A stretch of DNA of 45,099 nucleotides from Dhillonvirus LF50P3: sequence record OZ035753.1, one strand, 5' to 3'. Positions 5,797-40,742 of the stretch are shown piece by piece (the stretch's first letter is position 1; the number at the start of each line of letters is the position of its first letter). The notes below the pieces were generated by a model. It searched no databases and was not told the DNA's origin. It saw only the letters and a program-made list of their open reading frames with translations. The translations under genes and the position numbers were made by a program.

Positions 5797-5825
5797 TTTT
5801 GCGTCCTCGTTGTTGGTGTGCAACC

Positions 5826-5854
5826 AATATATGCAACCAATACGCGGATTGCAA
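5826..5854 (-). promoter_or_regulatory. sigma70-like promoter candidate for the 5032–5796 gene
   Basis: Read on the minus strand: TTGCAA, 17-nt spacer containing TTGGTTGCA, TATATT, then GGTTGCACACCAAC...GAGGAC...ATG. Nearly the same promoter and leader recur at 40380–40436. Confidence 0.45.
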
Positions 5855-11104: not shown

Positions 11105-11418
11105 TTGAGGCGGCGCGACGCTTTTATGGCCCGCCGCCACCCTCTGAAGATTTAGCCGCAAGTTTATGGGGCGCGGCCCCCGAAGATGTTTGTCCTCCTG
11201 TTGCACTATGGCCCGACAACGCGAAGATAGTCGCAGTCTTCACAGATTGCGCCACGCAATGGCGCACCGGATTTGGTGGCGCATACGGCATCGACTACGG
11301 CGTGCTGGAGTGGTTATTTAAGATGCACGGTATCGAAAACGAGCAGCGCGCGTTTAAAGATATCAAGCTAATGGAACGCATCGCGCTTGATGAAATGGCG
11401 CAGCAGAACCCAGCATAA
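10742..11418 (+). CDS. tail assembly chaperone G-T fusion made by -1 programmed frameshift
   Basis: Slippery heptamer A_AAA_AAC at 11095–11101 in the zero frame, 1 nt before the G stop; the -1 frame is open for about 105 further codons (KLIEAARRFYGPPPPSEDL...EMAQQNPA) to TAA 11416–11418 and has no start codon of its own near its 5' end. Confidence 0.55.
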
Positions 11419-11422
11419 TGAA

Positions 11423-11737
11423 GCGGGACAAGCGGGACGTCCCGTTTTGTCCCGCCCCTGTGAAACTGCATACCTACTCACTCTCATTGCATAATCTAAA
11501 AGCGGGACAAGCGGGACGTCCCGTTTTGTCCCACCCCACAAAAGTGCATACGTATTCGGTTTTCGTGCATAAAACAAACGGGACAGAAAGCGGGACAAAC
11601 AAGAGGCGGGACAAAGCGGGACAGCACCCCGTCCCCGCCAGTGCTGCCGCGGTTTTCAGCCGATCGGGACAGGCGGGACAACCCCCAGTCTTTCAGACTA
11701 GACGGGGGTCAATGGCCCCCTCGTCTGAGACTGAATA
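11423..11737. repeat. CGGGAC(A) motif array with two 33-bp hairpin-palindromes and a long stem-loop (copy 1)
   Basis: Near-palindromic units GCGGGACAAGCGGGACGTCCCGTTTTGTCCC(G/A)C at 11423–11455 and 11502–11534; four direct CGGGACA sites at 11579–11623; two more at 11665–11680; imperfect long hairpin 11686–11733. The 11576–11737 part recurs at 40063–40219. Confidence 0.7.
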
Positions 11738-11801
11738 AGGTTTGTTTTGAAATCGCTGATACAATATCCATCGGCAACTGCATAAAAAAGGGGACTGCAT
11801 A

Positions 11802-37297: not shown

Positions 37298-37627
37298 ATG
37301 AATGTAAACGACGCAATCGAAATGTTAACGAAGACTGTTTGCAGTGAGACAAGCCGGTCATGGGCATATACCGATGCCGTGGGGGCTGTGTTATTTGAAA
37401 TCGAACGACTGCGGCTTACCGAAAAAGAATTGCGCGCCAGGCTGGAACTACTCAACGGTACAGCAGCAAGCAAGCTGCAAAAACACAATGAAGAAATGGA
37501 AGAATACAAAAAGCAGGTTATCCGTTTGCGCGCCGAGGGCAAATCTTGGGCGATGATTGCCGAGTTGACCGGAATTAATCAGAGCACAGTGCGCTCCTGG
37601 GTACGCAATAATAAAACTTCTAAGTAA
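37298..37627 (+). CDS. small helix-turn-helix DNA-binding protein (putative transcriptional regulator)
   Basis: 109-aa ORF; coiled-coil-like middle and C-terminal HTH-like segment KSWAMIAELTGINQSTVRSWVRN; first gene of the right-hand plus-strand block. Confidence 0.6.
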   Translation: MNVNDAIEMLTKTVCSETSRSWAYTDAVGAVLFEIERLRLTEKELRARLELLNGTAASKLQKHNEEMEEYKKQVIRLRAEGKSWAMIAELTGINQSTVRSWVRNNKTSK

Positions 37628-37637
37628 GGCCACGGCA

Positions 37638-39902
37638 ATGAGCTTGATTAAATTCGCTATAACAAAACCCGCTAAAAAAGGCGAAAAAGCCAGGGCGGAA
37701 AACTTCCAGATGACGACCGATGAGTTTTTCGAATTTATCAAAGATGCGAAAGAAATCTCCTCGGTGCATATCAACAAGACGGAAGATAAAGCCGAGTATG
37801 CGCGCCGCAAGCGTAAGGCCGATGGCATCGTGGCGTATACCAGTGACGGATTGCGTCGTAAGACCAGTGCGGTGGACCGCTCGATCCTGTTCTTTGATAT
37901 TGACCGCACCGACACCCGCACCCTGCGCCGCTGCCGTAAGGCGTTCATCGACGCGGGACTGGAGCACGTCTTCCACACCACTACCGGCGACCGCCACCCG
38001 CTGAAAGGCGGCACGCGTTGCGCTCGTTTCCTGGTGCTCACTGACAAGCCTGTACCGGCGGAAGACCTGGGCCGCGTCCAGTATGCACTATTACACCAAC
38101 TGGGCCTGTCAGATGTGGACTTCGACGATTGCACGAAAGACACAAACCGCCTTATGTACCTGCCTCACCAGCAATCGGTTGTTAAGTGTCACTACGGCAA
38201 ACGCGCCCGCGTCCGTCGTCTTCTTCGCCTGGCTGATAAGCTGGGAGTGGAAAAAGAGGAAGTACGCCGCGAACTAACCCAGGGCGATGACGGCGTGGCG
38301 GACGGTATTCTGGATTGGTGCTTCCAGGCGGGATTCGAACCGCTGTCGTCCGGTCGTGGTTATGAAGTGCCGTGCCCTAACGAACACCTGCATAGCGGCG
38401 AAGGGTCAACCGCTATCATGGTTAAGGATGGCGAGATCCGTTTCAAGTGTATGCACACCGGCAACGAGTGTTGCTCGGAACTGAATAGACACCAGCACCT
38501 GGCGCTACGTCTTATCGGGATCCCGGACCACCTGAACGTCGAACCGCACAACATGTCACGTAAGCAAATCGCCGCCATCCTTCCGGGACTGGACGATGAG
38601 GAAGTGGAATCGTGCTACGAACATATCGTTGATGCGGTCGGAGACGGCGACGAGTACGGCGTATGTACAGATGCAGACCTGGACAACGAGCCGGTTGCTC
38701 TGTTCAGTAAGCACGACCCGATCATCGAGGGGCTGATTAACTTCAAATCGACCTGGTATCTGGCTGGCGAGTCGAACATCGGTAAATCGTTCTACGTGCT
38801 GGGCCAGATGGCGTCAGTATCTGCCGGTATTCCGTTCGGCGGCGCGAAGGTCGTCCAGTCTCATTGCTTCTATTTCGACGCGGAAGGTGGCGAAGCCTCC
38901 AACCAGCGTAAGGAGGCATTGCAGATTAAATATGAGCACGACCTGGACAAGCTGCACATTATCGATCTGCAATCACGCGGCTGGGATATCACCAGCAAAT
39001 CCGGCTTGCGTGAAGTTATCAGCTTCATCAACCGCACCGCTAACGGCGAGCCGGTTGGCCTGGTGGCGTTCGACTCACTCAACCAGACTGTTGCGCTGCG
39101 GTCCGCCGATGCAAAACCGTTCGACGAGAACAACGCCAGCGATATGGGCGAAGTGGTCAAAGCGCTGAAGGCCATTGCGGAAAATACAGGCGGCAGTGCG
39201 GGCGTCATCCACCACCCGGCGAAAGGTGCAAACGGCAGCAGATCCCCCCGCGGGTCCGGCGCGCTGCATGGTGCTGTTGATTCTGCGTTCTTCCTGGAGC
39301 AACCGGACGACAACCAGCCAGGCCAATTGAACCTGTATCACGAAAAGGCACGTAACGGCATCAAGCAAGCGCCGCGCGGCTTCGTCCTGCTCAAGTGCAA
39401 GGTTAAGGTGGATCTCCGCAAGTCCGAAGCGTTCGAAGCCCACCAGTCCACCAGCGCCGGGCCAGACTTCGGCGATGTGGTTGCCGGTTGGGACGTCAAG
39501 CCGATTGCATCCACGCCACGCGACGAGACTCTGTACCTCGTACCGGTCGCCCTGGCACCGTTCGCTATTGAACAGGCGAAGGCTGCGGGCAAAGCAGCAG
39601 TTAAGGAAGAGAACGCCGCAGGGCCGCGCAACGAAAAAGAGAAAGTGCTTTATGCAGCACTGGAAAAACTGATGGAAGATAACCCGGACCATACCGGATT
39701 CAGCAAATCGGCAATTGTCCGCCAGGCTGGGCTTGCGAAAGGTGGCACATCTACGAAGGCAATAGACGATATGGTCGAGCGCGGCGTGCTTGGGTTTTAC
39801 ACAGACCCACACACCGGGGCCATCTATGGGTCGTCTAATATCGTCATCAAAACGAACATACCCATCACGCTTTCGGCTACCGATGACGACCTGAAAGATT
39901 AA
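37638..39902 (+). CDS. DNA primase/helicase fusion
   Basis: 754-aa ORF: N-terminal primase-like region with acidic cluster LFFDIDRTD, a Cys/His cluster (CPNEHLH...CMHTGNECC) and a C-terminal RecA/DnaB-like ATPase with Walker A GESNIGKS and Walker B-like LVAFDSL. Confidence 0.8.
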   Translation: MSLIKFAITKPAKKGEKARAENFQMTTDEFFEFIKDAKEISSVHINKTEDKAEYARRKRKADGIVAYTSDGLRRKTSAVDRSILFFDIDRTDTRTLRRCRKAFIDAGLEHVFHTTTGDRHPLKGGTRCARFLVLTDKPVPAEDLGRVQYALLHQLGLSDVDFDDCTKDTNRLMYLPHQQSVVKCHYGKRARVRRLLRLADKLGVEKEEVRRELTQGDDGVADGILDWCFQAGFEPLSSGRGYEVPCPNEHLHSGEGSTAIMVKDGEIRFKCMHTGNECCSELNRHQHLALRLIGIPDHLNVEPHNMSRKQIAAILPGLDDEEVESCYEHIVDAVGDGDEYGVCTDADLDNEPVALFSKHDPIIEGLINFKSTWYLAGESNIGKSFYVLGQMASVSAGIPFGGAKVVQSHCFYFDAEGGEASNQRKEALQIKYEHDLDKLHIIDLQSRGWDITSKSGLREVISFINRTANGEPVGLVAFDSLNQTVALRSADAKPFDENNASDMGEVVKALKAIAENTGGSAGVIHHPAKGANGSRSPRGSGALHGAVDSAFFLEQPDDNQPGQLNLYHEKARNGIKQAPRGFVLLKCKVKVDLRKSEAFEAHQSTSAGPDFGDVVAGWDVKPIASTPRDETLYLVPVALAPFAIEQAKAAGKAAVKEENAAGPRNEKEKVLYAALEKLMEDNPDHTGFSKSAIVRQAGLAKGGTSTKAIDDMVERGVLGFYTDPHTGAIYGSSNIVIKTNIPITLSATDDDLKD

Positions 39903-39977
39903 ATCCTGCGCGCATTGGTTGCCGATATGGGAATTCCCATATCGCTAAATGGTTAAATTTTGCGCGCATTGGTTGCC
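39901..39977. repeat. 23-bp direct repeats flanking a perfect 22-bp palindrome
   Basis: AAATCCTGCGCGCATTGGTTGCC (39901–39923) and AAATTTTGCGCGCATTGGTTGCC (39955–39977); between them CGATATGGGAATTCCCATATCG (39923–39944) is its own reverse complement; a third partial copy GTATTGGTTGCCG at 40001–40013. Confidence 0.7.
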
Positions 39978-40062
39978 ATTTTGAGTGTTTTTATCAGGTC
40001 GTATTGGTTGCCGTGTAGTGTGAATATAGTGAATAGTTATGCAGTTTTGTTGCATAAAGTAA

Positions 40063-40219
40063 GCGGGACAGAAAGCGGGACAAACAAGGGGCGGGACAAA
40101 GCGGGACAGCACCCCCGTCCCGCCCCGGATGGCGCGGCCTGGAGAGGAGCGGGACAGGCGGGACAACCCCCAGTCTTTCAGACTAGACGGGGGTCAATGG
40201 CCCCCCTCGTCTGAGACTG
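40063..40219. repeat. CGGGAC(A) motif array and long stem-loop (copy 2)
   Basis: GCGGGACA at 40063, 40075, 40091, 40101, 40149 and 40158, then the hairpin CAGTCTTTCAGACTAGACGGGGGTCAATGGCCCCCCTCGTCTGAGACTG (40171–40219); near-identical to 11576–11737. Confidence 0.7.
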
Positions 40220-40379
40220 AATAAAATCCGGGGATTGCAAAACACACGGCAGCATGATGCGAAGTTCGGTCGTCGACGAACTAGGCAACCAATGCGGGTC
40301 GCATTATGCCGAGTGAAAAATGCAGTTTGCAGCCACAGCGGATAGCGATCAACTTTTTCATGCGCGTGATTAACATTGG

Positions 40380-40408
40380 TTGCACCCTACCTGGCACCCT
40401 GCTATATT
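40380..40408 (+). promoter_or_regulatory. sigma70-like promoter candidate with conserved leader
   Basis: TTGCAC (inside ATTGGTTGCAC), 17-nt spacer, TATATT, then TTGGTTGCACACCAACGTGAGGAC...ATG at 40437; the -10 and leader closely match 5797–5831 on the minus strand. Confidence 0.45.
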
Positions 40409-40436
40409 GGTTGCACACCAACGTGAGGACTGAACA

Positions 40437-40742
40437 ATGAAAGCGATTATCTGGAATTACGCAATGGCCCTGGCAAAGCTGAACGAAGCGAAAGCGCTGA
40501 ACGGCAACGTAGACCGTGCGCGCCAGTTTGCGACACTGGCATACCAGTCAATCATGTGTGCGCTAGACGATATGGACGCCAGCATGGATGACCTGGGTCC
40601 GCTGCGTAAGGCAATCCATGAATACGCGCTGGCATTCTCCCGTGAGCGCCTGGCTTATCGCTTCGGTATTGGCGAGAAGGCAGTGACAAACGTCGCCAGG
40701 ATTAAAGCCCAGCGTGAGCTATTCGCCCAGCTTGCGAAATAA
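40437..40742 (+). CDS. hypothetical protein
   Basis: 101-aa ORF with RBS GAGGAC and the promoter candidate just upstream. Confidence 0.5.
   Translation: MKAIIWNYAMALAKLNEAKALNGNVDRARQFATLAYQSIMCALDDMDASMDDLGPLRKAIHEYALAFSRERLAYRFGIGEKAVTNVARIKAQRELFAQLAK

What the first reader, a model, noticed from the sequence alone, without database searches (positions are those of the whole stretch)
39903..40436. 530-bp non-coding hub after the primase gene: direct repeats, perfect palindrome, motif array and promoter
Seen directly: this is the largest intergenic region in the window. It holds two 23-bp direct repeats ending in TGCGCGCATTGGTTGCC (39901–39923, 39955–39977) with a third partial copy, and a perfect 22-bp palindrome CGATATGGGAATTCCCATATCG (39923–39944). 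It also holds copy 2 of the CGGGAC array and stem-loop (40063–40219), two more ATTGGTTGCAC elements and a promoter-like -35/-10 at 40380–40408. Its position beside the primase/helicase gene, and the mix of iteron-like repeats and palindromes, make it a candidate origin of replication and/or main regulatory switch. That is inference.
Basis: partly seen in the sequence, partly recalled or inferred. Interest (0 to 1): 0.65.

Follow-up and report, generated by a model that had tools for sequence, protein, structure and literature searches.

The report
Likely phage replication origin and promoter
The 534-base gap after the primase-helicase gene of this E. coli phage (a Dhillonvirus) is most likely the phage's replication origin joined to a regulated promoter, and short repeats of the same kind sit directly after related helicase genes in many unrelated phages.

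Summary
The window is a near-complete Dhillonvirus (HK578-like) genome. The gap 39903-40436 is non-coding and is its largest intergenic region.

Two unrelated repeat systems overlap there.

(A) ATTGGTTGC occurs 16 times in the genome against 0.56 expected. It usually comes in pairs over sigma-70-like promoters, so it behaves as an operator or promoter box. Two copies clamp the conserved promoter at 40380-40408.

(B) GCGGGACA octamers (six direct, one inverted) lie next to one of the least stable AT-rich stretches of the genome and are followed by hairpins. An 85%-identical second copy lies at 11421-11738 in the tail operon.

The adjacent gene encodes an AEP primase, zinc finger, RepA-like (AAA_25) helicase and C-terminal winged helix. 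In viral contigs, 41 of 120 CGGGACA arrays lie directly 3' of an AAA_25 helicase gene, against 0 of 120 for a control motif. Others lie inside O-like initiator genes. In nine related lineages the hub layout is kept, while the repeat unit changes together with the winged-helix recognition helix.

Best reading: an iteron-type origin of a self-loading primase-helicase, comparable to SaPI, P4 and pRN1. The 23-bp repeats and the palindrome are polymorphic and probably not essential. No origin activity was tested.

The parts
37298..37627 (+). 109-aa helix-turn-helix protein gene, first gene of the replication operon. Candidate reader of the ATTGGTTGC boxes (inference).
   Evidence: Pfam HTH_23 2.3e-7 and Sigma70_r4_2 2e-6. 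PHROG 9366. The C-terminal HTH is conserved in L013, L014 and L080, which keep the box. No homologue in distant loci.
37638..39902 (+). 754-aa primase-helicase: AEP/PrimPol domain (1-345) with zinc finger, RepA-like AAA_25 helicase (357-531), C-terminal winged helix (about 665-740).
   Evidence: Pfam AAA_25 1.3e-20. N-terminal model pLDDT 85.5, best Foldseek match the cyanophage S-2L PrimPol AEP domain, E 1.6e-5. C-terminal model pLDDT 76 with H-s-H-H-hairpin topology; top matches are mainly MarR/MepR-type winged helices, with ORC2 lower in the list, E about 0.01-0.1. Invariant C246/H252/C271/H273/C279.
39891..39998 (.). 54-bp tandem duplication (two units) that re-copies the primase stop-codon region plus one A box. 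Polymorphic among relatives.
   Evidence: the repeat finder D3. Present in L001, L002, L009 and L011 and absent in seven other aligned genomes.
39923..39944 (.). Perfect 22-bp palindrome CGATATGGGAATTCCCATATCG at the duplication junction. Probably dispensable.
   Evidence: Absent with the duplication in 7 of 12 relatives and imperfect in L001, L009 and L011.
39914..40011 (+). Three direct A boxes ATTGGTTGCC (39914-39922, 39968-39976, 40003-40011), not paired with -10 elements at promoter distance.
   Evidence: Copy number is 1-3 among relatives. The orientation is flipped in L080.
39975..40062 (.). AT-rich, low-stability segment abutting the iteron array; candidate DNA-unwinding element. Contains a -10-like TATAGT (40025-40030).
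   Evidence: 40023-40062 is the 5th least stable 40-mer of the window (GC 25%). 39975-40074 is the 7th least stable 100-mer.
40031..40057 (.). Conserved box GAATAGTTATGCA (40031-40043) forming the hairpin TTATGCA-N7-TGCATAA (40037-40057).
   Evidence: The same 13-mer precedes the repeat array in L021, L022, L026, L340, L341 and L342, whose primases are 38-49% identical. The loop is found in both orientations among relatives.
40063..40165 (+). B array: six direct GCGGGACA (40063, 40075, 40091, 40101, 40149, 40158) plus an inverted GTCCCGCC (40117). Proposed iterons.
   Evidence: Iteron columns are more conserved than spacers: 28/42 against 17/61 invariant, p = 8e-5. Association with AAA_25 helicase genes. 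Co-variation with the winged helix.
40171..40219 (.). Hairpin cluster: AGTCT-TTC-AGACT, then GACGGGGG-loop-CCCCCCTCGTC, then GAGACTG. Stems invariant, loop free.
   Evidence: The exact 18-mer is found only in Dhillonvirus contigs. The same three-hairpin pattern with other sequences occurs in L021, L022, L026 and L339-L342. The folding signal is similar on both strands, z -3.2 and -2.8. No T-tract follows.
40244..40254 (+). Conserved box ACACGGCAGCA between the hairpins and the promoter.
   Evidence: Invariant in the 13-genome alignment. Present at the same relative place in L021, L022, L026 and L340, and as ACGGCARCA in L337, L339, L341 and L342.
40285..40293 (-). Inverted A box (GCAACCAAT on the + strand).
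   Evidence: Invariant in relatives.
40375..40416 (+). Promoter TTGCAC(40380-40385)-17 nt-TATATT(40403-40408) overlapped by two A boxes (40375-40385 over the -35; 40406-40416 over the end of the -10 and the start site).
   Evidence: Sequence. Conserved in 13 genomes. The 20-nt stretch TATATTGGTTGCACACCAAC is shared with the minus-strand promoter at 5811-5830.
40437..40742 (+). First gene downstream (101 aa, unknown function), preceded by the ribosome-binding site GAGGA at 40425-40429. It opens the small-gene and lysis cluster.
   Evidence: PHROG 9839, unknown function.
11421..11738 (+). Second copy of the B module in the tail operon: two palindromic units (two direct plus two inverted GCGGGAC) separated by AT-rich 40-mers, then a unit 85% identical to 40030-40224.
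   Evidence: In the phage collection 158 records hold 340 places.
11757..11765 (+). Extended -10 element TGATACAAT between the second B module and the tape-measure gene (11802).
   Evidence: Sequence. Invariant in 14 genomes.

Best explanation
The hub is a composite cis-acting region with two parts.

**1. Origin module, about 39975-40255.** It consists of an AT-rich unwinding segment, the GAATAGTTATGCA box and hairpin, an array of GCGGGACA iterons, three hairpins and the ACACGGCAGCA box. Proposed mechanism, which is inference:
- The primase-helicase encoded immediately upstream binds the iterons through its C-terminal winged helix.
- It assembles on and melts the adjacent AT-rich or hairpin DNA, so it loads itself without a separate loader.
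- Its AEP primase domain then makes the first primers for the phage DNA polymerase.
- The 85%-identical module at 11421-11738 is a second origin or a cis-acting replication enhancer.

**2. Regulated promoter, 40375-40416.** It drives the downstream small-gene and lysis cluster. Its -35 and start site are covered by two ATTGGTTGC boxes. These boxes belong to a genome-wide set of paired operator or promoter boxes read by a phage regulator. The 109-aa HTH protein is the candidate, with weak support. The four further boxes in the hub may couple replication-gene or origin activity to that regulator.

**Shown:** the anatomy, its conservation, the domain architecture, the statistical link between such arrays and AAA_25 helicase genes, and co-variation of repeat unit with the winged helix.

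**Inferred:** binding, melting, priming, and any timing role.
For: - **Architecture.** The upstream gene encodes AEP primase + zinc finger + AAA_25/RepA-like helicase + winged helix. This is the functional organisation of known self-loading initiators (PMC9371898; PMC2777425; PMC4234260).
- **Layout.** Short repeats begin after the gene, occur in both orientations, and adjoin one of the least stable segments of the genome. In the second copy, iteron sets flank AT-rich spacers.
- **Independent association.**
  - In IMG/VR, 41 of 120 loci with three close CGGGACA copies have an AAA_25 helicase ORF ending within 600 nt of the array. The figure is 0 of 120 for the reversed heptamer.
  - The helicase is the only window protein, and the only protein family, shared widely by these loci.
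  - A Hyphomicrobium contig carries 14 copies starting 8 nt after such a gene.
  - In 18 of 80 loci the array lies inside an O-like or DnaD-like initiator gene, as lambda ori lies in gene O.
- **Co-variation.** In nine lineages of this primase-helicase family the hub layout is kept. The repeat unit changes with helix 3 of the winged helix and not with the upstream HTH protein.
- **Selection.** Iteron columns are more conserved than spacers, and hairpin stems are invariant with free loops. All 158 related phage records keep the module, mostly twice.
- **Non-coding.**
- **A boxes.** 16 against 0.56 expected. They occur in pairs over -35, spacer, -10 or +1 of promoter-like sites, in both orientations.
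Against: - No experimental datum: no marker-frequency, binding or replicon assay exists for any Dhillonvirus in the literature I could search.
- Cumulative GC skew has its minimum at about 36-37 kb, the divergent promoter region. It follows transcription direction, so it neither supports nor excludes 40 kb.
- The winged-helix tail of this protein shows no detectable homology to the C-terminal tail shared by the helicases that sit next to CGGGACA arrays elsewhere. The cross-family association therefore supports 'origin' but not a particular reader.
- L021, L022 and L339 have similar winged-helix helix 3 but different repeat units, so specificity would have to rest on two or three residues.
- The winged-helix fold assignment is moderate (pLDDT 76, Foldseek E about 0.01).
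- A second copy inside a tail operon is unusual for an origin.
- AT-rich minima are also found at ordinary promoters.
A-like boxes occur in relatives that lack the 109-aa protein.
Confidence: 0.62

Rival explanations
1. Purely transcriptional control region. The B arrays and hairpins are binding sites for a regulator, or a roadblock or insulator, separating the replication operon (and, for copy 1, the upstream tail genes) from a downstream promoter. There is no role in replication.
For: Both copies lie between the end of one transcription unit and a promoter-like element: TTGCAC-17-TATATT at 40380-40408, and the extended -10 at 11757-11765. A boxes in the same hub are promoter-associated genome-wide.
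Against: - It does not explain why CGGGACA arrays sit 3' of AAA_25 helicase genes in 41 of 120 unrelated contigs and inside initiator genes in others.
- It does not explain why the repeat unit follows the helicase's own winged helix rather than the neighbouring HTH regulator.
- No intrinsic terminator is predicted in the hub.
Confidence: 0.17
2. The conserved module is transcribed and acts as a structured RNA, for example a processing or stability element, an antitermination element of the HK022 put type, or a small RNA made from the -10-like TATAGT at 40025.
For: - The segment 40030-40230 folds better than shuffles, z = -3.2.
- Hairpin stems are invariant with variable loops.
- Both copies have the orientation of the surrounding genes.
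- There are two copies per genome, as with putL and putR (from my own knowledge).
Against: - The opposite strand folds almost as well, z = -2.8, as expected for DNA palindromes.
- No Rfam family matches.
- Direct octamer repeats at 9-16-nt spacing are typical of protein-DNA sites.
- In other contigs the arrays occur in either orientation relative to the helicase gene.
- No compensatory changes are available within the genus, because the stems never vary.
Confidence: 0.08
3. Selfish or neutral repeat: a small duplicated intergenic element (MITE-like, or a recombination scar) with no function for the phage.
For: There are two copies with partial concerted evolution. The 54-bp duplication and the flipped hairpin loop next to it show that this DNA is prone to rearrangement.
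Against: - The module is kept in all 158 related phage records at 85-99% identity.
- Iteron cores are more constrained than spacers.
- The layout is conserved in lineages whose primase is only 38-49% identical.
- There are no copies in E. coli genomes or plasmids.
Confidence: 0.05
4. Packaging or other DNA-transaction site, for example terminase-binding pac repeats or a partition-type centromere.
For: Arrays of short repeats bound by small DNA-binding proteins are typical of pac and cosB sites (from my own knowledge).
Against: The arrays are not near the terminase genes (9-1966). The cross-phage association is with helicase and initiator genes, not terminases: only 2 loci shared terminase homologues.
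Confidence: 0.03

Closest known systems
SaPI origins with Rep/PriRep self-loading helicases (Staphylococcus aureus pathogenicity islands)
   Same: - The helicase also acts as the initiator through a C-terminal winged helix.
- Six to twelve short (5-6 nt) iterons lie immediately downstream of the rep ORF.
- There is an AT-rich region, and iterons point in opposite directions.
- Primase is fused in SaPI5 (PMC9371898).

Here: 7 octamers after the gene, an AT-rich flank, opposite orientations (clearest in the second copy), a fused primase and a predicted C-terminal winged helix.
   Different: - SaPI Reps are AAA+ superfamily-3 helicases. This one is a RecA-type AAA_25/RepA-like helicase with an AEP primase.
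- In the hub the AT-rich stretch lies on one side of the array rather than in its centre.
- The array starts 161 nt after the stop codon, because A boxes intervene.
- A second copy lies 28.6 kb away.
- Binding and melting are untested.
Satellite phage P4: alpha protein with ori and crr
   Same: - One polypeptide carries primase, helicase and a C-terminal winged helix that binds repeats at the origin (PMC2777425; PMC4234260).
- From my own knowledge (Flensburg & Calendar 1987; Ziegelin et al. 1993): octamer iterons TGTTCACC occur at two separate loci, ori and crr, and crr is next to the alpha gene. That matches octamers at two loci here, one next to the gene.
   Different: P4 alpha has a Toprim (DnaG-type) primase and an SF3 helicase. 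There is no sequence homology, the octamer is different, and the two loci are 4.5 kb apart in an 11.6-kb replicon.
Plasmid pRN1 (orf56/orf904 operon with origin stem-loop) and Bordetella phage BIP-1
   Same: - The operon has a small DNA-binding repressor followed by a prim-pol/helicase/winged-helix protein.
- The origin lies in the non-coding DNA 3' of the replication gene and depends on a stem-loop.
- The authors noted the same arrangement in phages (PMC4234260).

Here: HTH gene, then AEP primase-helicase-winged helix, then a downstream hub with conserved hairpins.
   Different: pRN1 has an SF3 helicase, a single 100-nt stem-loop and no iterons.
IncQ plasmid RSF1010 oriV (RepA, RepB', RepC)
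   Same: A RepA-type helicase: the only PDB sequence relative, though weak (E 0.07-0.46). Iterons are followed by stem-loops (ssiA, ssiB) that are exposed by the helicase and recognised by an AEP-like primase (PMC4234260).
   Different: RSF1010 uses three separate proteins, including a dedicated iteron binder RepC for which I found no counterpart. Its iterons are 20 bp. Whether the hairpins here are priming signals is untested.
Phage lambda ori inside gene O; SPP1 oriL/oriR
   Same: In 18 of 80 viral loci the same CGGGACA arrays lie in the linker of O-like or DnaD-like initiator genes. SPP1, a 44-kb siphovirus, has two initiator-bound origins about 32 kb apart (from my own knowledge), comparable to the two modules here.
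   Different: This phage has no O-like or G38P-like initiator gene, and its arrays are intergenic.

Membership tests
Iteron origin 3' of a self-loading helicase-initiator gene (SaPI type) | Multiple short (5-8 nt) repeats immediately downstream of the helicase/initiator ORF | tested here: met
   Six direct and one inverted GCGGGACA at 40063-40165, 161 nt after the stop codon (107 nt in relatives without the duplication).
Iteron origin 3' of a self-loading helicase-initiator gene (SaPI type) | AT-rich region flanked by iterons pointing in opposite directions | tested here: inconclusive
   In the hub the AT-rich stretch (40023-40062, 5th least stable 40-mer) lies on one side of the array, with only one inverted copy. 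In the second module, sets of two direct plus two inverted repeats flank AT-rich 40-mers.
Iteron origin 3' of a self-loading helicase-initiator gene (SaPI type) | C-terminal winged-helix domain in the helicase that determines iteron specificity | tested here: met
   The AlphaFold model has winged-helix topology (pLDDT 76) and the Foldseek hits are winged helices (E about 0.01). The repeat unit co-varies with its helix 3 in four discriminating lineage pairs. Binding itself was not tested.
Iteron origin 3' of a self-loading helicase-initiator gene (SaPI type) | Helicase of AAA+ superfamily 3 homologous to SaPI Rep | tested here: not met
   The only Pfam hit is AAA_25 (RecA-type, RepA-like), and the PDB sequence search finds only RSF1010 RepA. 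This is therefore an analogue, not a member of the Rep family.
Iteron origin 3' of a self-loading helicase-initiator gene (SaPI type) | Origin activity: specific binding, melting, and replication of a linked plasmid | not testable with these tools
   Needs wet-lab assays.
P4 alpha / ori-crr system | Homology to alpha protein (Toprim primase, SF3 helicase, alpha-type winged helix) | tested here: not met
   The N-terminus is an AEP fold and the helicase is AAA_25. No P4 alpha structure (1ka8) appeared among the sequence or fold hits listed.
P4 alpha / ori-crr system | Octamer repeats at two separate loci, one adjacent to the replication gene | tested here: met
   Clusters at 40063-40165 and 11423-11680. 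The arrangement is genus-wide.
RSF1010-type oriV | Separate RepC-type iteron-binding initiator and 20-bp iterons | tested here: not met
   Repeats are 8 bp. No RepC-like protein appears in the annotated relative. I did not search every ORF of the window for one.
Lambda-type origin within the initiator gene | Iterons inside an O-like gene | tested here: not met
   The hub is non-coding. No O-like gene is annotated in the relative.
Intrinsic (Rho-independent) terminator | GC-rich hairpin immediately followed by a T-tract | tested here: not met
   The scan found none in 39903-40436. The hairpin at 40187-40213 is followed by GAGACTGAATAAAATCC.
Known RNA families (Rfam 15) | Match to a covariance model at or near the gathering score | tested here: not met
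   No hit at gathering thresholds in the whole window. The only hit at E below 1 is a spurious mir-606 match: 21 bits against a gathering score of 80.
Sigma-70 promoter (for 40380-40408) | -35 and -10 hexamers with 16-18 nt spacing | tested here: inconclusive
   The -10 TATATT matches 5 of 6, the spacer is 17 nt, and the -35 TTGCAC matches only 3 of 6, so it falls below the scanner's cut-off. It is conserved in 13 genomes. Five other A boxes lie 27-29 nt upstream of a -10-like hexamer, which suggests a factor-assisted promoter class. No start-site data exist.

The most novel reading that the evidence does not exclude
CGGGACA-type heptamer arrays would mark a widespread and so far undescribed class of phage replication origins. 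These origins belong to self-loading RecA-type (AAA_25) primase-helicases, which are the SF4-side counterpart of the SF3 systems of SaPI, P4 and pRN1. The origin sits directly 3' of the helicase gene and is read by the protein's own C-terminal domain. Dhillonviruses would be a tractable E. coli model for this class (BASEL phages, SECphi18), with two such origins per genome, one of them embedded in the tail operon. The recurrence of the same heptamer with at least three initiator domains that show no detectable sequence homology would then need its own explanation: an ancient shared winged helix, convergence, or a common host partner.
Probability: 0.4. Interest if true: 0.72.

Novelty: new variant of a known kind. 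Interest (0 to 1): 0.6.

Why it matters
No replication origin has been mapped for Dhillonviruses or their relatives. They are widely used E. coli model and therapy-candidate phages. This analysis gives two precise, testable candidates (about 40.0-40.25 kb and 11.4-11.75 kb), a candidate initiator domain (residues about 650-754 of the primase-helicase), and a set of natural specificity variants for swap experiments.

More broadly, arrays of short repeats placed directly 3' of AAA_25 helicase genes could be used to predict origins in many uncultivated phages, and to define a self-loading helicase class outside superfamily 3.

The ATTGGTTGC boxes also define a probable regulon: paired sites at about eight promoter regions. 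That could explain temporal control in a phage group that has no RNA polymerase of its own.

Tried and rejected
- **Rfam.** Nothing at gathering thresholds on the whole window, and only a spurious miRNA match at relaxed E-value on the hub.
- **GC skew.** The cumulative curve turns at about 24 kb and about 36-37 kb, following gene orientation. It is uninformative for the origin.
- **Simple promoter/terminator scan.** It lists nothing inside the hub. The promoter was assessed by eye and by conservation.
- **Coding hypothesis for the hub.** Some GenBank records annotate small hypothetical proteins here, such as Bas84_0054. Rejected on codon-position variability and frame-breaking indels.
- **Protein search with the C-terminal 214 residues alone.** It returned nothing; the full-length search worked.
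- **PDB sequence searches.** Only a weak RSF1010 RepA hit, plus a low-complexity BurrH hit that I disregard.
- **Phage Jersey (NC_021777).** Its gene order differs and no comparable array was found, so it was not used.
- **Search for a second AGGGATAA array in the L022 contig by exact pattern.** Uninformative.
- **Homology between the Dhillonvirus winged-helix tail, the tail of array-linked helicases and O-like initiators.** None detected (jackhmmer and hhalign).
- **Homologue of the 109-aa HTH protein in distant loci, to test it as the A-box reader.** None found.
- **E. coli genomes and plasmids.** No copy of the hub, so there is no sign of satellites borrowing it.
- **Known host sites (from my own knowledge).** DnaA box, IHF, Pho box, CsrA and sigma-54 readings of the motifs were considered and dropped for lack of fit. 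None was tested formally.
- **Genome-contig scan for the 19-mer.** Most hits were two-copy coincidences in coding DNA, for example in Duganella.
Full report
**What the window is.** The 1.2 kb around the finding matches 158 phage records. Nearly all are Escherichia or Shigella Dhillonvirus (HK578-like siphoviruses of about 44-45 kb); the best match is KS_S9 at 95%. The window is therefore essentially one such genome. In an annotated relative, the gene to the left of the gap is the 'replicative helicase-primase', preceded by a small gene labelled transposase. To the right come small genes of unknown function and then holins and endolysin.

**Check of the observation.**
- The gap 39903-40436 is 534 bp and is the largest in my ORF map.
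- The '23-bp direct repeats' are part of a 54-bp tandem duplication. Its units 39891-39923 and 39945-39977 are 85% identical. It re-copies the last codons and the stop codon of the primase gene, and the 22-bp perfect palindrome sits at the junction.
- ATTGGTTGC occurs 16 times in the window against 0.56 expected. GCGGGACA occurs 16 times against 2.0 expected.
- The promoter-like TTGCAC-17-TATATT is at 40380-40408.
- The gap is non-coding. An 85-codon open frame spans the array, but variable alignment columns by codon position number 32/23/18. Relatives carry +1 and -16 nt indels, and four frames are open together because the sequence is GC-rich.

A sixth, inverted ATTGGTTGC copy lies at 40285. 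The duplication with its palindrome is absent from 7 of 12 aligned relatives, and the palindrome is imperfect in three of the four aligned relatives that carry it.

**Two different repeat systems.**

*A boxes (ATTGGTTGC).*
- Outside the hub they lie in or next to promoter-like sites, mostly in pairs 12-31 nt apart and in either orientation. Positions are 5820/5833, 21932, 25602/25613, 27274/27291, 30236/30248, 34058/34074, 37099 and 43662/43685.
- In five cases the box starts 27-29 nt upstream of a -10-like hexamer, so its TTGCA takes the place of a -35 element. The partner box then lies in the spacer or over the -10 and start site.
- The hub promoter has one box over the -35 and one over the end of the -10 and the start site. 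It shares a 20-nt identity (TATATTGGTTGCACACCAAC) with the minus-strand promoter near 5820.
- This is the behaviour of an operator or activator box of a phage-encoded regulator.
- The 109-aa protein encoded just upstream of the primase has a sigma-70 region-4-like HTH. It is conserved in the lineages that keep the box. The assignment remains weak, because A-like boxes (TTGGYTG) also occur in relatives that lack this protein.

*B repeats (GCGGGACA).*
- They form only two clusters, 40063-40165 and 11423-11680.
- Each ends in the same hairpin cluster. The two modules are 85% identical over about 195 nt.
- The second lies in the tail operon, between the ORF ending at 11418 and the tape-measure gene.
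- All 158 related records keep the module, with 340 places in all.
- Within 30 distinct module sequences, iteron columns are more conserved than spacer columns: 28/42 against 17/61 invariant, p = 8e-5. The hairpin stems never vary, while the 8-nt loop does.

**The neighbouring protein.**
- Residues 357-531 are an AAA_25 (RSF1010 RepA-like) helicase domain.
- The N-terminal 345 residues fold (pLDDT 85.5) as an archaeo-eukaryotic primase. The best match is the PrimPol domain of cyanophage S-2L (E 1.6e-5), followed by an invariant Cys/His cluster.
- The last 105 residues fold (pLDDT 76) as helix-strand-helix-helix-hairpin. Their top structural matches are MarR/MepR-type winged helices, with the ORC2 winged helix lower in the list, at modest E-values.
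- This tail is the least conserved part of the protein: 23-37% identity where the helicase core keeps 62-65%.

Primase + helicase + C-terminal winged helix is the organisation of P4 alpha, pRN1 ORF904 and SaPI PriRep. These bind origins next to their own genes (PMC2777425; PMC4234260; PMC9371898).

**Independent evidence that such arrays are origins.**
- A scan of bacterial and archaeal genomes for a 19-mer from the array gave mostly coincidences. One Hyphomicrobium contig, however, has 14 copies of the same octamer starting 8 nt after the stop codon of a 660-aa AAA_25 helicase ORF.
- I then scanned IMG/VR for three CGGGACA copies spaced 1-8 nt apart. The scan stopped at 120 loci, none of them Dhillonvirus.
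- In 41 of these loci an AAA_25 helicase ORF ends within 600 nt of the array, and the first repeat is usually within 60 nt of the stop codon. With the reversed heptamer as control, 0 of 120 loci showed this, and only one had such a helicase anywhere.
- The primase parts differ: Prim-Pol, Toprim with zinc ribbon, or none.
- No other protein family is shared by more than 7 of these loci. The primase-helicase is the only window protein with homologues there.
- The usual layout is three to five direct repeats, then a GC-rich palindrome bracketed by inverted repeats, with AT-rich spacers.
- In 18 of the first 80 loci the array lies inside a gene that PHROGs call replication initiation, O-like or DnaD-like, in the linker region. 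Lambda ori lies inside gene O in the same way.

Two independent replication contexts for the same repeat make a replication role much more likely than a transcriptional one.

**Evidence within the protein's own family.** Nine lineages with 38-49% identical primase-helicases (L021, L022, L026, L337-L342) all show the same order: small HTH gene, primase-helicase, a 300-555-bp non-coding hub, then small genes.

The hub has the same order of parts in most of these lineages (L337 and L338 show only part of it):
- an optional A-like box;
- one or two GAATAGTTATGCA boxes;
- four or five direct short repeats, two inverted, two direct;
- a small, a GC-rich and a small hairpin;
- an ATTCAT...ACACGGCARCA box;
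- a promoter.

The repeat unit differs by lineage:

| Lineage | Repeat unit |
|---|---|
| Window | GCGGGACA |
| L339 | GGGACAA |
| L342 | CGGACAA |
| L021 | TCCGACAG |
| L022 | AGGGATAA |
| L026 | GGGGATGA |
| L340, L341 | GGGGGAGA |
| L337, L338 | ACTCGCAA |

The unit follows helix 3 of the winged helix, not the recognition helix of the upstream HTH protein:
- L340 and L341 share the repeat and the winged-helix helix 3 but differ in the HTH.
- L342 and L026 share the HTH helix exactly but differ in repeat and winged helix.
- L341 and L021 behave likewise.
- L337 and L338 share repeat type and winged-helix type but differ in the HTH.

This is the pattern expected if the primase-helicase reads its own iterons. 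It rests on few lineages. L021, L022 and L339, which have similar helix 3 and different repeats, show that two or three residues would have to carry the specificity.

**Other supporting details.**
- The 40-mer 40023-40062, which abuts the array, is the fifth least stable in the genome. The 100-mer 39975-40074 is the seventh.
- In the second module, iteron sets flank AT-rich 40-mers.
- The module folds better than shuffles on both strands, z -3.2 and -2.8. That fits DNA palindromes rather than a strand-specific RNA.
- No T-tract follows the hairpins.
- The hub has no match in 5,426 E. coli genomes or 72,556 plasmids.

**Most likely mechanism (inferred).**
1. Early transcription of the HTH/primase-helicase operon supplies the initiator.
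2. Its winged helices bind the GCGGGACA iterons just downstream of its own gene.
3. Hexamers assemble and open the adjacent AT-rich or hairpin DNA.
4. The AEP domain primes, and the phage polymerase takes over.
5. The second module in the tail operon acts as a second origin or an enhancer, like P4 crr or SPP1 oriR.
6. The ATTGGTTGC boxes tie the hub and its promoter into a phage-wide regulatory circuit.

Not shown: binding, melting, priming, timing, and which protein reads the A, GAATAGTTATGCA and ACACGGCAGCA boxes.

**What argues against it.**
- There are no experimental data, and I found no paper on Dhillonvirus origins or on CGGGACA/TGTCCCG iterons in the searchable library.
- GC skew is uninformative.
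- The Dhillonvirus tail is not detectably homologous to the tail of the array-linked helicases.
- The winged-helix call is of moderate confidence.
- A tail-operon location for an origin is odd.

**Comparison with known systems.** It works like SaPI ori/PriRep, P4 alpha with ori/crr, and pRN1 orf56/orf904 with its downstream stem-loop. It also recalls RSF1010 (RepA-type helicase, iterons, then hairpins for an AEP-like primase). It is not a member of any of these protein families. The helicase is RecA-type AAA_25 rather than SF3, the primase is AEP rather than Toprim, and there is no RepC. I therefore rate it a new variant of a known kind.

**Verdict.** The origin reading of the CGGGAC module is well supported by comparative evidence but remains experimentally untested (confidence about 0.6). 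The link between short-repeat arrays and AAA_25 helicase genes across phages appears not to have been described and is directly testable.

Noticed in passing
window, genome-wide (for example 8452, 9152, 12261, 40246): The octamer ACGGCA[AG]C occurs 51 times (38 on the + strand, 13 on the - strand). Each variant is 13-16 times over expectation, mostly on the coding strand. It is also the core of the conserved hub box ACACGGCAGCA. It could be a codon effect or a polar signal.
   Followed up: partly
window 40037-40057: In the hairpin TTATGCA-N7-TGCATAA, the 7-nt loop occurs in both orientations among relatives (GTTTTAT or ATAAAAC). The whole palindrome has been flipped.
   Followed up: no
window 39891-39998: A 54-bp tandem duplication re-copies the primase stop-codon region and one A box, with the 22-bp palindrome at the junction. 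It is present in 5 of the 13 aligned genomes, counting the window.
   Followed up: yes
window 11419-11801: A 380-bp non-coding insert lies inside the tail operon, between the ORF ending at 11418 (probably the frameshifted tail chaperone) and the tape-measure gene. It carries the second B module and an invariant extended -10, TGATACAAT.
   Followed up: partly
window 5811-5830 (- strand) and 40403-40422 (+ strand): An identical 20-mer, TATATTGGTTGCACACCAAC, spans the -10 and start region of two promoters on opposite strands 34.6 kb apart.
   Followed up: no
L089 6650-6860 (Hyphomicrobium MAG DATLJG010000275.1): Fourteen TGTCCCGC/GCGGGACA copies lie between an AAA_25 helicase gene and a convergent reverse-transcriptase (RVT_1) gene.
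   Followed up: partly
L099, L122, L124, L129-L131, L133, L138 and others: CGGGACA arrays lie inside O-like or DnaD-like replication-initiator genes of uncultivated phages. They are translated as an SGT/AGQ/RD-rich linker.
   Followed up: partly
L018, L019, L021-L024, L026, L337-L342, upstream of the primase gene: Distant relatives carry an XRE-type HTH gene at the position where Dhillonviruses carry the sigma-region-4-like HTH gene.
   Followed up: partly
L025 6259-7040: A relative with a 46% identical primase has an approximately 900-bp hub with ten (G)TTGGTTGCA boxes in both orientations, starting inside the 3' end of the primase gene. It also has a 29-bp inverted repeat about 230 bp apart, and no B-type array.
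   Followed up: partly
window c1 against c2, and the same pair in 12 relatives: Partial concerted evolution of the two B modules. In several genomes both copies share the same variant of the last iteron pair and of the hairpin loop; in others they differ.
   Followed up: partly
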